From Gammaproteobacteria bacterium (GTDB lineage Bacteria; Pseudomonadota; Gammaproteobacteria; Eutrophobiales; Eutrophobiaceae): a stretch of DNA of 64,000 nucleotides. Where the stretch lies: positions 933,239 to 997,238 of the forward strand of contig OZ253477.1 of the NCBI GenBank assembly GCA_965261775.1, in the 5' to 3' direction. The position numbers and the translations under genes are program-made. This document shows, in pieces, positions 1-11,870 of the stretch. The notes below the pieces were generated by a model. That model saw nothing but the letters and a program-made list of their open reading frames with translations, had not been told where the DNA came from and searched no databases. Position 1 is the first letter of the stretch. Each line of letters starts with the position of its first letter.

Positions 1-461
1 ATCGCCCGGTCGGCGGCGGCGTCACCTTTTGAGGTGCGGATCATTTCCACCACTGCCTTAAACCATTCCTCACCGGTGAGGTGCGGGGCGTTGTCGGCGA
101 AGTCGTAAAAGTCCGGCTTTTCGTCCACAAAGATGTGGCGGGCGATTTTCAGCGGCGGCGGATTTTCCAGCGCACCGACAAACATCCCCCACTGGTCGTC
201 TTCATTTTCGCCGACCATCCGCCAAAACAACTGCGTTCCGCATTCGGCGCAAAATCCGCGCTGTGCCCACGGGGAGGATTGCCGCCATTTAAGGGAGTCG
301 TCCGCGTCAAAGACGGGACGGGATATGCTGGCAGCGGCGGGGGGCAAGCCGCCGTTGAGTCTGCGGCACATTGTGCAGTGGCACACGGTAACTTCGCTCG
401 GGACTTCCGCCAGCCGAAACTGCACGGCGCCGCACTGGCATTTTCCAATTTGCTCGCTCAT
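1..461 (-). CDS. GFA (glutathione-dependent formaldehyde-activating / CENP-V-like) family protein; C-terminus runs off the window edge
   Basis: Minus-strand ATG at 461 is preceded by an AAGGAG Shine-Dalgarno. The translation begins MSEQIGKCQCGAVQFRLAEVPSEVTVCHCTMCRRLNGG..., a Cys-rich CxC...CHC..C zinc pattern typical of GFA-fold proteins. The ORF is open to position 1, which is why it is absent from the complete-ORF track. Confidence 0.7.
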   Translation of the reverse strand, partial: MSEQIGKCQCGAVQFRLAEVPSEVTVCHCTMCRRLNGGLPPAAASISRPVFDADDSLKWRQSSPWAQRGFCAECGTQLFWRMVGENEDDQWGMFVGALENPPPLKIARHIFVDEKPDFYDFADNAPHLTGEEWFKAVVEMIRTSKGDAAADRA

Positions 462-508
462 GGTTGGAGCTCCTTTAAGTGTGTCGGGAAAGCTGCATTG
501 TAGCAGGT

Positions 509-543
509 TTCAGTTGCCAGGTGATTGGTTATACTGATGTCGG
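509..543. repeat. direct repeat R1 (gtttcagttgccaggtgattggttatactgatgtcgg), one of three copies bracketing a small cassette
   Basis: The same 27-35-bp sequence occurs at 509-543, 1081-1113 (variant cagttgcctggggactggttatactgatgtcgg) and 1151-1177. Confidence 0.8.
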
Positions 544-649
544 TTATTGATTTTAATTGTCAGGACGATCCGCCAGCTTAAAAAAGGCTTGGCCACTGAG
601 CCTGATTAACAAATCAGTGGCATTTTATTAAATAATAGGAGATGAAGAA

Positions 650-928
650 ATGAAAAATATAATAATAAGTATACTTGTGCTTTTCACGGCGGGGTGCTTC
701 GCAACCCTGAAACCCGCCATATCGGATATTTCCGATTCGATGGTGAAGGTTCAGGCCCAAAAAAACCCTGTGGGACAATATCCTCCCGAAACGGAAATTG
801 AACAAGAAGCCATTCGTGGCTGTGCGCAGTATGAAAAATATCCTAATTTGATGAGTAGTCGTTGTGTTTTCGTCGAATTTGGTGATTGCAAAATCAGGGA
901 GTTTTTGTTCACTTGTAAGGAAATGTGA
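650..928 (+). CDS. small lipoprotein, hypothetical
   Basis: An AGGAGA Shine-Dalgarno sits 8 nt upstream. The N-terminus MKNIIISILVLFTAGC carries a lipobox (L-F-T-A-G-C). The protein is 92 aa with 5 Cys. Confidence 0.6.
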   Translation: MKNIIISILVLFTAGCFATLKPAISDISDSMVKVQAQKNPVGQYPPETEIEQEAIRGCAQYEKYPNLMSSRCVFVEFGDCKIREFLFTCKEM

Positions 929-933
929 ACGTA

Positions 934-1107
934 ATGGCAGGTAGAGCTGAAACCGTCAAATGGAAGATTGTGGAATTTATTCCGGAAACGCCCGATGACG
1001 GGATTGTTTATGTGTCGAACCAGTACAACGTCGCGGTGCATAGATGTTGTTGTGGCTGCGGTGAGAAAGTCGTCACGCCTCAGTTGCCTGGGGACTGGTT
1101 ATACTGA
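934..1107 (+). CDS. 57-aa Cys-rich hypothetical peptide with an HRCCCGCGEKVV zinc-ribbon-like motif; its C-terminus and stop codon are encoded inside repeat R2
   Basis: The ORF is translationally coupled to the lipoprotein gene (ATG 934; an alternative GTG at 925 overlaps the upstream stop). The last 8 residues, QLPGDWLY, are supplied by the repeat. Confidence 0.4.
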   Translation: MAGRAETVKWKIVEFIPETPDDGIVYVSNQYNVAVHRCCCGCGEKVVTPQLPGDWLY

Positions 1108-1113
1108 TGTCGG
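1081..1113. repeat. direct repeat R2 (diverged copy)
   Basis: Matches R1 over about 30 of 33 nt. Confidence 0.8.
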
Positions 1114-1118
1114 TGTAG

Positions 1119-1138
1119 GCCCCCGCTTTCGCGGGGGC
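1119..1138. repeat. perfect GC-rich hairpin gcccccgc-tttc-gcgggggc
   Basis: An 8-bp perfect inverted repeat with a 4-nt loop between R2 and R3. No U-tract follows it. Confidence 0.7.
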
Positions 1139-1150
1139 GACGGTGGATGC

Positions 1151-1177
1151 GTTTCAGTTGCCAGGTGATTGGTTATA
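1151..1177. repeat. direct repeat R3 (identical to the first 27 nt of R1)
   Basis: Exact match gtttcagttgccaggtgattggttata. Confidence 0.85.
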
Positions 1178-1367
1178 AGGCGTAACCCGTCAAAAGCACC
1201 CCGCGAATATTCAAAAGCGTCGGGGGATGTCGGCCCCTGCTCAAAAGCGCTATAGTCATGAGGGGAAAGGGCCGCTTCATGGCGTGGTATGGCCGGGTTC
1301 CCGCTCGCGCAGAAGGCGTGGTTTCGCACCGTTCTCAAACGCATCATCATTTACGTTAAAATGGCTT

Positions 1368-2177
1368 ATGTTTCCGGACCTGGGATTGATGATCATGATT
1401 GCCTACGCCGCCGCCGGTATCCTGGCGGGTCTGGTCGGGGGTATGCTGGGGATCGGCGGCGGTATTGTCATTGTGCCCGTTTTGCATTATCTGTTTCAAT
1501 ATCAGGGCTTTCCGGCGTCCAGCCTGATGCAGGTGGTGATCGCGACGTCGCTGGCGACCATCGTTGTGACGTCCGTTGCCGCGACTTACGCGCATCACCG
1601 GAAAGGGGCTGTGTTGTGGCCTGTCTTGTTCCGGTTTGTGCCCGGCCTGCTGATCGGCAGTTGTCTGGGCGCCATGCTGGCCGATATTGTTTCGAGTGAT
1701 TTTCTGCGCCTTATCTTCGGCGCGTTTGAGATACTGGTCGCCCTGCAAATCGGGTTCAACCTGACGCCAGGTGCGCGGACGGCGTTGCCGAATGCCTCGG
1801 TACTGGCGGGTTCCGGCACCGGTATCGGTTTCTTTTCGACGCTGCTGGGGATCGGCGGCGGCACGCTGACTGTCCCGTTTTTATTGTGGCATAACGTTAA
1901 TATCCGTAATGCCGTCGCGGTCTCTTCCGCCTGCGGTTTTCCCGTTGCGGTGGCGGGTACGGCGACGATGATTGTGGCTGGCCAGGATAACAGCGGATTG
2001 CCGGAGCATGCTTTCGGTTATCTCTACTGGCCGGCGGCGCTGCTCATCATGGCGATGACAGTGGTATTCGCTCCGTATGGGGCGAAATTGACGCATTATC
2101 TTCCCGTCAATATATTAAAACGCCTGTTCGCGGTATTATTGTTTATTGTGGGGGTCAGGATGCTGGTGCCCGCCTGA
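1368..2177 (+). CDS. TSUP/TauE/SafE (DUF81) family sulfite/anion exporter membrane protein
   Basis: Duplicated motifs GGMLGIGGGIVIVPVL and GIGGGTLTVPFLL. The protein is polytopic, and ATG 1368 gives a typical length of about 270 aa. Confidence 0.8.
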   Translation: MFPDLGLMIMIAYAAAGILAGLVGGMLGIGGGIVIVPVLHYLFQYQGFPASSLMQVVIATSLATIVVTSVAATYAHHRKGAVLWPVLFRFVPGLLIGSCLGAMLADIVSSDFLRLIFGAFEILVALQIGFNLTPGARTALPNASVLAGSGTGIGFFSTLLGIGGGTLTVPFLLWHNVNIRNAVAVSSACGFPVAVAGTATMIVAGQDNSGLPEHAFGYLYWPAALLIMAMTVVFAPYGAKLTHYLPVNILKRLFAVLLFIVGVRMLVPA

Positions 2178-11485: not shown

Positions 11486-11735
11486 ACGGAGTTCATTTCG
11501 TGTCTGTTACAACAATCTGTCTGATAAGACGGTTCAAGGGAGCGGGAGATTATACCCCTCAACCCCGAATATTGCATATATATTTCGATTATCCGAAGCT
11601 ACCATATGAAAATGCGGATTATTTAATCCGCCCGGTATTCTTTAGAAACAGCGCTGTCATCAACGGTATTGCAAACAATACCCGAACGAATAATCGCACC
11701 AGCGCGTTTCCCTCTCCCCACCTTCGTCATTCCCC

Positions 11736-11870
11736 CGCCCCTGCCCCTGCCCCTGCCCCTGCTTTTGCCCCTGCCCCTGCCCCTGCTTTCGCAGGGGTGA
11801 CGTTCTTTCGCAGGGGTGACGTTCTTTCGCAGGGGTTCTTCCTCAGGGGTGACGTTCTTGCGCCTGCCTG
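11736..11870. repeat. compound tandem repeat: (CCCCTG)n hexamer tract followed by 3-4 copies of a 19-mer CGCAGGGGTGACGTTCTTT; the whole block is self-complementary and flanked by a 13-15-bp inverted repeat (11725-11739 and 11881-11893)
   Basis: Read directly from the sequence. CAGGGG is the reverse complement of CCCCTG. The block lies in the divergent cysDN/groESL intergenic region. Confidence 0.85.

What the first reader, a model, noticed from the sequence alone, without database searches (positions are those of the whole stretch)
509..1177. Two-gene mini-cassette (lipoprotein plus CxCGCG peptide) bracketed by three copies of a 27-35-bp direct repeat
The repeat occurs at 509-543, 1081-1113 and 1151-1177, enclosing a 640-bp segment. 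The segment has its own stem-loop at 592-621, a strong Shine-Dalgarno and two translationally coupled small ORFs. The second ORF's last 8 codons and stop lie inside repeat R2. A perfect GC hairpin (1119-1138) sits between R2 and R3. The layout resembles a small insertion or duplication at a repeat-defined site between a GFA-family gene and a TauE exporter. This could be a MITE-like or REP-like element that captured, or created, a coding cassette.
Basis: seen in the sequence. Interest (0 to 1): 0.6.

Follow-up and report, generated by a model that had tools for sequence, protein, structure and literature searches.

The report
Strain-variable lipoprotein cassette in a repeat array
A small lipoprotein gene and a dead fragment of a defence-protease gene sit between copies of a 37-bp repeat at the edge of an anti-phage defence island; a near-identical sister genome lacks them at this site, so the repeats mark a spot where small gene units are gained and lost.

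Summary
The three direct repeats are real and not chance. The unit is 37 bp, GTTTCAGTTGCCAGGKGAYTGGTTATACTGATGTCGG. R1 is 507-543, R2 is 1077-1113 and R3 is a 27-bp truncated copy at 1151-1177. The GC hairpin between R2 and R3 is a GTAG-tagged REP.

A sister contig (about 98.5% identical flanks) has no cassette at this site. It carries 5.4 tandem 74-bp [37-mer + REP] units instead. About 12 kb upstream it has a second array, where the same 37-mer precedes two other, unrelated small lipoprotein genes and the DruA operon.

More distant relatives have slt next to tauE. The array therefore sits at the tauE edge of an inserted defence island.

ORF1 is an intact member of an uncharacterised lipoprotein family with a YecR-like fold. 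ORF2 is the first 57 residues of a BubE (DUF6527) protease, without its catalytic Ser and His, so it is a gene remnant.

My best reading is that the 37-mer is a portable promoter-like cassette head whose direct copies drive gain and loss by recombination. A dedicated integron-like recombination site is not excluded. A MITE is rejected. The 37-mer overlaps real bubE codons in register, which I cannot explain.

The parts
3..461 (-). GFA-family gene, cut by the window start. It is the left neighbour and the last gene of the inserted island.
   Evidence: Pfam PF04828, E = 1.1e-18. The gene is 165 aa in the sister contig. Relatives have slt here instead.
507..543 (+). R1: a full 37-bp repeat unit (GGTGAT haplotype). 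It is the candidate promoter-like head of the lipoprotein cassette.
   Evidence: GTTTCA, a 17-nt spacer and TATACT span positions 1-29, and the unit ends at GTCGG.
544..649 (+). Cassette leader. It contains a stem-loop at 592-621 followed by ATTTTATT, and AGGAG at 637-641.
   Evidence: It is not conserved upstream of homologous lipoprotein genes.
650..928 (+). ORF1: an intact 92-aa lipoprotein of an uncharacterised family. It has a lipobox Cys16 and four invariant Cys, and a YecR-like fold.
934..1107 (+). ORF2: a 57-aa N-terminal fragment of a bubE (DUF6527) gene, i.e. a pseudogene remnant. Its last 8 codons and its stop lie in R2.
   Evidence: PF20137, profile positions 2-27 of 63. tblastn covers residues 4-55 at about 50% identity to plasmid DUF6527 genes next to ThiF and multiubiquitin genes. 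The PSIGNW Ser, the SHY His and the fourth Cys are missing.
1077..1113 (+). R2: a 37-bp repeat unit (GGGGAC haplotype, 5' GCC instead of GTT). It reads in frame as bubE codons 49-57.
1114..1150 (+). GTAG-tagged REP unit: GTAG at 1115-1118, hairpin GCCCCCGC-TTTC-GCGGGGGC at 1119-1138, and linker GACGGTGGATGC.
   Evidence: There are eight near-identical copies in the sister contig. For the REP class see PMC3733652.
1151..1177 (+). R3: the terminal, truncated repeat copy (27 nt, then TATA|AGG). The sister genome has the same junction.
1389..2177 (+). TauE/SafE family gene. It is the right neighbour and the first core gene after the island.
   Evidence: Pfam PF01925, E = 1.4e-53. Synteny tauE-yjbQ-NTP_transf_9-ferrochelatase-M48 is kept in relatives.

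Best explanation
Window 507-1177 is one allele of a fast-changing array built from a 37-bp direct repeat and a GTAG-type REP hairpin. The array lies at the tauE-proximal edge of a defence island inserted between slt and tauE.

In this genome one array slot holds a roughly 535-bp lower-GC cassette. It comprises a leader, an intact gene for a small disulfide-rich, YecR-like lipoprotein, and the dead 5' third of a bubE (DUF6527) protease gene.

I think the 37-mer works as a portable promoter-like cassette head: -35-like GTTTCA, a 16-18 nt spacer, -10 TATACT, and a start near GTCGG. The imperfect dyad in the spacer may be an operator. It would sit in front of self-contained transcription units made of a leader with a ribosome-binding site and a gene, with a terminator-like sequence evident after one of them.

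Because many co-oriented copies lie close together, recombination between them excises, inserts or swaps the units and expands or contracts the 74-bp [37-mer + REP] repeats. Whether that recombination is homologous or enzyme-assisted is not determined.

Shown: the anatomy, the strain polymorphism, the island context, and the identities of ORF1 and ORF2.
Inferred: promoter activity, the recombination route, and the direction of the event (gain here or loss in the sister).
For: Allele difference:
- The sister contig has flanks 98.4% and 98.6% identical. It has no cassette and carries 5.4 units of 74 bp instead.
- The two alleles differ only by the cassette and by the number of units.

Second array (L013 4096-5503):
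- It has six co-oriented 37-mers. Two of them sit 33-35 nt before the ATGs of two other lipoprotein genes, each with a GGAG ribosome-binding site. The last sits 218 nt before DruA.
- The three lipoproteins are unrelated to one another. The shared element is therefore the 37-mer, not a duplicated gene.

Promoter-like conservation pattern:
- All 15 copies in the window and the sister contig are on the strand of the next downstream gene, while the genes upstream of each array are divergent.
- In the three foreign genomes the conserved block is exactly 29 nt, from GTTTCA to TATACT.
- In the arrays the block extends 8 nt further, to GTCGG.
- Substitutions and indels fall almost entirely in alignment columns 10-22, between the two hexamers. 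The exceptions are four copies with an altered hexamer.
- The three copies with a 1-nt indel still have spacers of 16-18 nt.
- The GGTGAT haplotype goes with downstream lipoprotein genes (3 of 3). GGGGAC goes with a downstream REP (6 of 8). This fits a 37-mer that travels with what follows it.

Transcription-unit shape: one cassette in the sister array ends in a hairpin plus T-run directly before the next 37-mer.

Island context: relatives have slt, then about 120 bp, then tauE. The sister contig has PD-T4-4-like, type III RM, DruA/NurA-like/HerA-like and PD-T7-4 genes there.

Precedent: families of reused 'putative mobile promoters' are described (PMC3488235).
Against: - The sigma-70 match is weak: 3/6 plus 5/6. 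Matches of that quality occur 2.8 times per kb by chance, and the consensus scan did not call the site.
- Several 37-mers are followed only by a REP hairpin and no gene.
- R1 is separated from ORF1 by a terminator-like hairpin (592-629).
- In two of the three foreign genomes no co-oriented gene follows the single copy.
- The sharp, identical boundaries on both sides of the 37-mer in many contexts, and the very high conservation of the spacer, are more than a simple promoter needs. They suit a recombination site.
- R1 and R2 differ at 5 positions, and 18 nt of identity is short for RecA-dependent exchange.
- No transcript data exist.
Confidence: 0.45

Rival explanations
1. The 37-mer is the site of a dedicated site-specific recombinase. 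The array would be an integron-like cassette platform without attC or IntI. Each unit (REP only, lipoprotein gene, or the 12-kb Druantia-like block) would be a cassette that excises as a circle and reintegrates at another 37-mer, with crossover in the TGGTTATA segment.
For: - The architecture is N cassettes with N+1 co-oriented sites. Inserts are 37 nt, 47 nt, about 0.5 kb and 12.3 kb.
- Both repeat boundaries are sharp in at least 6 different contexts.
- R1 and R2 look like reciprocal hybrids. Their left parts differ and their right 18 nt are identical, which places any exchange between position 19 and position 37.
- There is a half-copy (positions 1-19) fused to a full copy at L013 4096-4150.
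- Homology ends at position 27 in R3 and the sister's last copy, and at position 29 in the single copies.
- Single copies occur in three other gammaproteobacterial lineages in unrelated contexts, where they could be landing sites.
- The length is typical of minimal recombinase sites, and there is an imperfect dyad: TCAGT..CCAG-N4-CTGG..ACTGA.
Against: - No recombinase was detected among the annotated genes of the 21.6 kb around both arrays.
- tblastn with XerD and a resolvase sequence found nothing in the window or the loci.
- The dyad symmetry is poor in double-stranded DNA.
- At least one cassette carries a terminator-like hairpin plus T-run at its end, and the repeat haplotype follows the downstream rather than the upstream payload. 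A crossover in positions 20-27 predicts the opposite.
- A related island (L014) lacks the repeat.
- The evidence comes from essentially one lineage.
Confidence: 0.22
2. The whole structure is a BIME-like mosaic of a REP and an accompanying linker motif. It would spread and rearrange through a REP-associated Y1 transposase (RAYT) or through replication slippage. The coding cassette would be incidental DNA trapped between units, and the 37-mer would have no function of its own.
For: - The hairpin is a canonical GTAG-tagged GC palindrome, the class common in Gammaproteobacteria (PMC3733652).
- A related REP cluster, GCCCCTGCTTTCGCAGGGGTGACG, lies at window 11732-11860.
- There is a 74-bp tandem array with copy-number change between strains.
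- The points where copies lose homology bracket the CT dinucleotide of TATACT. From my own knowledge of RAYT biochemistry, CT is the kind of site these enzymes cut.
Against: - The REPs are all in one orientation, not alternating as in BIMEs (PMC2817692 abstract).
- Copy number is low and local: 3 copies in 64 kb.
- The 37-mer occurs without a REP in front of three lipoprotein genes, and alone in three foreign genomes that lack this REP in the loci held.
- No RAYT gene was seen.
Confidence: 0.15
3. The 37-mer acts as a folded single strand. It would be either an RNA hairpin with a GNRA loop (a processing, stability or protein-binding element at the 5' end of each unit) or a DNA hairpin recognised by an IS200/IS605-type HUH enzyme, as in palindrome-associated transposable elements.
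For: - The fold TCAGT-U-GCCAG-GNGA-YUGGU-UAU-ACUGA forms in 91% of cells across 17 copies, against at most 52% for slid controls.
- The one-sided changes are wobble-compatible, and the loop variants GUGA and GGGA are both GNRA.
- The direct orientation of similar hairpins at both ends matches IS200/IS605 end architecture (my own knowledge).
Against: - No pair shows changes on both sides, so there is no covariation signal. The structure was derived from these same sequences.
- Copy A3 and the L001 copy break inner-stem pairs.
- In the foreign genomes conservation stops at T29, inside the outer stem.
- There are N+1 copies rather than 2N copies, and no tnpA.
- No Rfam family matches.
Confidence: 0.08
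4. The arrangement is an ancient, fixed local structure: a unique repeat with conserved full-length genes and no mobility.
For: None was found beyond the fact that ORF1 is intact.
Against: - The sister genome lacks the cassette.
- Relatives lack the whole island.
- The repeat occurs elsewhere.
- ORF2 is truncated.
Confidence: 0.02

Closest known systems
Putative mobile promoters (Matus-Garcia et al. 2012, PMC3488235)
   Same: A short, near-identical upstream sequence sits in front of unrelated genes, both within one genome and across distant genera. It is co-oriented with the downstream gene.
   Different: Those families were defined as 50-100 nt at 80% identity or more, with no mechanism. Here the unit is 37 nt with sharp boundaries, forms tandem arrays with a REP, brackets dispensable cassettes, and overlaps coding sequence of a bubE gene.
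REP / BIME arrays (GTAG-tagged REPs, PMC3733652; RAYT-associated REPs, PMC2817692)
   Same: A GTAG tag plus a GC-rich palindrome, tandem mosaic units combining the REP with a second motif, and copy-number variation between strains.
   Different: All REPs are in one orientation. Copy number is low and local. The partner motif also occurs without the REP and in other lineages. Genes lie between units. No RAYT was seen.
Integron gene-cassette arrays
   Same: Co-oriented small genes of unknown function (lipoproteins are typical cargo), each separated by a conserved repeat. There are N+1 sites for N cassettes, strain-to-strain turnover and lower GC, and the array adjoins defence genes.
   Different: There is no IntI and no attI. 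The repeat lacks the R''/R' cores (RYYYAAC / GTTRRRY) and the long imperfect palindrome of attC. At least one cassette carries a terminator-like end, and each has a candidate promoter.
Bub (6E/DUF6527) bacterial ubiquitination-like operons; BubE serine protease (bioRxiv 10.1101/2024.11.21.623953)
   Same: ORF2 aligns over residues 4-55 with BubE proteins that lie beside E1 (ThiF) and multiubiquitin genes. It keeps three of the four zinc-finger cysteines.
   Different: Only the first 57 of about 115-150 residues are present. The catalytic Ser and His and the fourth Cys are absent, and there are no bubA, bubB or bubD genes nearby. It is a remnant, not a working Bub system.
YecR, small lipoprotein bound to the Salmonella flagellar LP ring (PDB 7bgl)
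   Different: Identity is 13% and there is no Pfam YecR match. The family has its own PAISDISDSMVKVQ motif and four invariant cysteines. Its function is unknown.

Membership tests
MITE | Terminal inverted repeats at both ends | tested here: not met
   No inverted repeat joins the two ends of 507-1177. The flanking repeats are direct.
MITE | Short target-site duplication and many near-identical copies of the whole element | tested here: not met
   R1 and R2 are 37 nt and differ at 5 positions. Both cassette proteins are singletons among about 15 billion proteins. There is no other copy in the window.
REP (GTAG super-family) | A 20-40-bp GC-rich palindrome with an unpaired GTAG tag at one end | tested here: met
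   GTAG at 1115-1118 plus GCCCCCGC-TTTC-GCGGGGGC at 1119-1138. The definition is taken from PMC3733652.
REP (GTAG super-family) | High copy number dispersed through the genome, and an associated RAYT gene | tested here: inconclusive
   There is 1 copy plus one related cluster in 64 kb and 8 copies in 21.6 kb of the sister contig, all inside the two arrays. The whole genome was not available and no RAYT was seen.
BIME | Regularly spaced REPs in alternating orientation | tested here: not met
   All REP copies are on the + strand at 74-bp spacing.
Integron cassette array | attC sites with RYYYAAC / GTTRRRY cores and an imperfect palindrome of 57-141 bp | tested here: not met
   Read directly from the 74-bp unit. 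There is no inverse-core pair, and GTTATAC has no complementary GTATAAC partner.
Integron cassette array | An adjacent intI integrase and attI | tested here: not met
   The Pfam and PADLOC searches of the genes in the 21.6 kb around both arrays returned no integrase family. The rest of the genome was not seen.
CRISPR array | Identical repeats separated by unique spacers of uniform length (about 30-40 nt) | tested here: not met
   The 'spacers' are the same REP each time, or are 47 nt, about 0.5 kb or 12.3 kb long.
Sigma-70 promoter | -35 and -10 hexamers 16-18 nt apart that direct initiation | tested here: inconclusive
   GTTTCA (3/6), a 17-nt spacer and TATACT (5/6), with G at -14. Spacers are 16-18 nt in all copies. 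This match quality occurs 2.8 times per kb by chance and the scan did not call the site. Initiation cannot be tested with these tools.
DUF6527 / BubE | A complete domain with a C4 zinc finger and a Ser-His catalytic dyad | tested here: not met
   The Pfam score is 26.6 bits against a cut-off of 23.6, but only profile positions 2-27 of 63 are covered. The alignment stops at W55, before PSIGNW, the fourth Cys and SHY. The catalytic residues are as given. ORF2 is homologous but truncated.
Bacterial lipoprotein | A signal peptide ending in a lipobox with an invariant Cys | tested here: met
   MKNIIISILVLFTAGC. Cys16 is invariant and Gly15 is at least 90% conserved in 20 homologues.
Xer/dif site with IMEX-type tandem insertions | A 28-bp dif-like site (two 11-bp arms around a 6-bp centre), once per chromosome | tested here: not met
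   There is one copy per complete chromosome in three MAGs. However, only 8 of 28 positions match the E. coli dif sequence, which I recalled from memory. The arms are not inverted repeats, and the sister contig has 12 copies.

The most novel reading that the evidence does not exclude
The 37-bp repeat is the recombination site of an undescribed cassette platform inside defence islands. It would capture and shuffle units from 37 bp to 12 kb, including small lipoprotein genes and a Druantia-like system, without IntI or attC. The site itself would descend from an internal segment of the bubE defence gene.
Probability: 0.15. Interest if true: 0.8.

Novelty: new variant of a known kind. Interest (0 to 1): 0.5.

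Why it matters
Defence islands are known to turn over quickly, but how individual genes enter and leave them is mostly unknown.

This locus gives a two-allele snapshot between genomes about 98.5% identical. A precisely bounded 37-bp repeat sits at every junction where a small gene unit is present, absent or replaced by a REP.

If the repeat is a portable promoter, this is a clear natural case of promoter reuse coupled to cassette exchange. If it is a recombination site, it would be a new integron-like system. Either outcome can be tested directly.

The work also identifies an intact, uncharacterised lipoprotein family with a YecR-like fold that keeps company with defence genes. It also corrects ORF2, which a gene caller would report as a small CxCGCG protein, to a dead BubE fragment.

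Tried and rejected
Searches for further copies of the repeat:
- My single genome-contig scan for the core pattern gave 3 real single-copy hits.
- The metagenome scan gave one orthologue of L002 and one chance hit inside an OsmC-like coding sequence.
- The viral scan gave 0 hits.
- blastn against plasmids and phages gave only chance-level hits.
- No inverted or degenerate partner copies (up to 9-10 mismatches) occur in any locus.

Known RNA genes:
- Rfam found nothing at gathering thresholds, and only noise in a permissive scan.
- No tRNA or tmRNA is present, so this is not a tRNA-type att site.

Access to the source genome:
- Exact-protein look-ups for ORF1, ORF2 and two TauE start variants found no record.
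- The look-up with the identical M48 peptidase returned only the sister contig. The source genome's own upstream region was therefore never seen.

Cassette proteins:
- Contexts of lipoprotein homologues were contigs under 1.1 kb, without the repeat or a DUF6527 gene.
- PDB sequence search with ORF2 gave nothing meaningful.
- The afdb50 fold library was unavailable, and the lipoprotein alignment was too diverse for a viral-locus scan.

Ideas rejected:
- The 'C-terminal coding fragment or att scar of a target gene' idea rested on substitutions falling on third codon positions of F-Q-L-P-G-D-W-L-Y, with a stop codon following each copy. More copies added a first-position change (GTTAAC), and no copy except R2 has an ORF upstream.
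- A dif/Xer site, parS, Ter and sigma-54 or ECF promoters were each compared by eye with consensus sequences recalled from memory, and none fitted.
- Extension of the bubE homology upstream into the REP linker (11 of 21 nt) is not significant in G-rich sequence.
Full report
**Observation**

The three direct repeats are real. The 24-nt core occurs at 510-533, 1080-1103 (3 mismatches) and 1154-1177. None is expected by chance and there are no further copies in the 64-kb window.

- Both hairpins are present: 592-599/614-621 and 1119-1126/1131-1138.
- AGGAG lies 8 nt before the ATG at 650.
- ORF1 is 650-928 and ORF2 is 934-1107. ORF2 ends inside R2.
- The neighbours are a GFA gene on the minus strand and a TauE gene on the plus strand.
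- GC is 0.42 in 544-1076 against 0.58-0.60 in the two neighbours. The whole window averages 0.505, so composition alone is modest evidence for foreign origin.

**The two ORFs**

ORF1 is a genuine gene.
- A full HMMER scan of 1.8 billion representatives finds 55 homologues of about 80-200 aa, mostly 90-110, most aligned over nearly their full length.
- They share an invariant lipobox cysteine, a PAISDISDSMVKVQ motif and four invariant cysteines.
- No Pfam, NCBIfam or PADLOC family matches, and PHROGs gives only a marginal hit (E = 0.008).
- The AlphaFold model is confident (pLDDT 91).

ORF2 is not a small CxCGCG peptide.
- It hits Pfam DUF6527, but only profile positions 2-27 of 63.
- It aligns over residues 4-55, at about 50% identity, with plasmid DUF6527 genes that follow ThiF (E1) and multiubiquitin genes.
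- DUF6527 is BubE, a serine protease with a C4 zinc finger and a Ser-His dyad (bioRxiv 10.1101/2024.11.21.623953).
- ORF2 stops before the PSIGNW serine, the fourth cysteine and the SHY histidine. It is a dead 5' fragment with no Bub partners nearby.
- Both exact proteins are singletons in the 15-billion-protein collection.

**The repeat in a sister genome**

The TauE protein has a 99%-identical homologue on a 26-kb ENA contig. Its flanks are 98.4% (506 nt) and 98.6% (4.4 kb) identical to the window.

Between GFA and TauE that contig has no cassette. It carries 5.4 tandem copies of a 74-bp unit. The unit is the repeat, then TGTAG, then the same GC hairpin, then GACGGTGGAAGC. The array ends in the same truncated copy as R3.

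R2 + hairpin + R3 in the window is therefore one unit of that array, and R1 is its first copy. The two alleles differ only by the cassette and by the unit number.

Extending the contig upstream showed a second array at L013 4096-5503.
- It has six co-oriented copies.
- It holds two further small lipoprotein genes, of 130 and 106 aa. Each ATG lies 33-35 nt after TATACT and has a GGAG ribosome-binding site.
- It also holds REP-only units.
- Its last copy lies 218 nt before DruA.
- The three lipoproteins are unrelated to one another. The 106-aa protein matches a phage protein family, phrog_13472.

Aligning 17 copies defines a 37-bp unit, GTTTCAGTTGCCAGGKGAYTGGTTATACTGATGTCGG. Both of its boundaries are sharp across at least six different contexts.

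**Genomic context**

More distant relatives (TauE 64-67% identical) have slt, then about 120 bp, then tauE. The same downstream genes follow.

In the window's lineage, everything to the left of the array is therefore an insertion. In the sister contig that insertion is a defence island. It contains:
- a PD-T4-4-like ATPase;
- a type III methyltransferase;
- array A;
- DruA with NurA-like and HerA-like genes;
- a fragmented type III methyltransferase;
- PD-T7-4;
- a type III restriction enzyme;
- GFA;
- array B.

A related island in another organism lacks the repeat.

**The repeat in other genomes**

My single scan of 185,579 species genomes found the core once each in three complete MAG chromosomes: Arenicellales, Azotimanducaceae and an unclassified gammaproteobacterium.
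- All three copies are intergenic, with different neighbours.
- Identity runs over exactly 29 nt, from (G/T)TTTCAG to TATACT, including positions the search pattern left free.
- The metagenome scan added an orthologue of the Azotimanducaceae site. There the 29-mer is unchanged while the flanks have diverged.
- No hits were found in viral contigs, plasmids or phages.

**What the hairpin is**

GTAG directly precedes the GC palindrome, which defines the GTAG super-family of REPs common in Gammaproteobacteria (PMC3733652). A related REP cluster lies at window 11732-11860.

**How the 37-mer may work**

Points for a promoter-like cassette head:
- The 29-nt block conserved across genomes equals a 6 + 17 + 6 promoter span, GTTTCA-N17-TATACT.
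- Within the arrays, conservation extends 8 nt further, to about +1/+2.
- Variation is confined to the spacer apart from four copies with an altered hexamer, and indels keep the spacer at 16-18 nt.
- All 15 copies in the two strains face the next downstream gene.
- The units behind them have a leader, a ribosome-binding site and a gene, and one has a terminator-like hairpin plus T-run.
- The repeat haplotype follows the downstream payload.

Points against:
- The hexamer match is weak and common by chance.
- Many copies precede only a REP.
- R1 is followed by a terminator-like hairpin.
- Two of the three foreign single copies have no downstream gene.

Points for a recombination site:
- There are N+1 sites for N cassettes.
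- Both boundaries are sharp.
- R1 and R2 have a hybrid pattern.
- A half-copy ends at position 19.
- Homology ends at positions 27, 29 or 37, depending on the copy.

Points against it:
- No recombinase was found nearby.
- The dyad symmetry is poor.

A hairpin with a GNRA loop is possible. It has no covariation support and matches no Rfam family.

**Unexplained**

R2 continues the bubE reading frame. Its QLPGDW aligns in register with the family's xxPTDW, where P, D and W are invariant among the three sequences aligned. This is far too good for a random junction.

So the 37-mer core and codons 50-57 of a bubE gene appear to be homologous. Either the repeat family was born from a truncated bubE junction like the one preserved here, or a bubE gene recombined with a pre-existing repeat that itself came from bubE. 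I cannot decide which, nor how 29 nt of it reached three other lineages.

**Verdict**

The region is a strain-variable cassette in a repeat array at a defence-island edge, and it is not a MITE.

I favour a portable promoter-like repeat whose direct copies mediate cassette gain and loss (0.45). An integron-like recombination site (0.22) and a plain REP/BIME mosaic (0.15) are the main rivals.

Noticed in passing
window 11732-11860: A second REP-like cluster. CCCCTG hexamer repeats run into GCCCCTGCTTTCGCAGGGGTGACG, followed by 2.7 copies of a 19-nt unit. The hairpin has the same type of stem, TTTC loop and GACG tail as the REP at 1119-1142.
   Followed up: partly
window 1190-1248: Between R3 and tauE, TCAAAAGC occurs three times (1190, 1211, 1241). 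The 8-mer GATGTCGG, which is the 3' end of the 37-mer, recurs at 1226-1233. R3 could be a repeat copy split by a roughly 48-nt insertion, or these could be regulator sites for tauE.
   Followed up: no
L013 4096-5503 (sister contig, ENA ERZ26694059 ctg58800): A second repeat array between a type III methyltransferase gene and DruA. It has six 37-mers plus a half-copy (positions 1-19), two unrelated lipoprotein genes (130 and 106 aa), two REP units, and a different small hairpin unit (GCACCTGC-GTAA-GCAGGTGC).
   Followed up: yes
L013 10001-12934: The 525-aa and 116-aa ORFs both match parts of type III methyltransferase models. This looks like a fragmented (pseudogenised) Mod gene upstream of PD-T7-4 and a type III restriction enzyme.
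   Followed up: partly
L003 1891-5685: The single 29-mer sits 49 nt upstream of a MotA/ExbB-like plus MotB/OmpA-like gene pair with weak ZorA/ZorB matches. A type II methyltransferase and a putative restriction enzyme follow, so this may be another defence neighbourhood.
   Followed up: partly
L002 747-1949 and 3895-4161: An IS605-type TnpB (OrfB) gene lies 2.3 kb from the single 29-mer. The 29-mer itself points into the 3' end of a convergent 88-aa gene, so any transcript from it would be antisense.
   Followed up: no
window 133-537 (+): A 134-aa ORF antisense to the GFA gene ends in R1 with FQLPGDWLY*. It is an artefact of an open antisense frame in GC-rich DNA, not a gene, but a gene caller could report it.
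   Followed up: yes
L005 789-812: The only other metagenome match to the repeat pattern lies inside an OsmC-like coding sequence. Its flanks are unrelated, so it is a chance hit, roughly what 20 specified bases would be expected to yield in a collection this large.
   Followed up: yes
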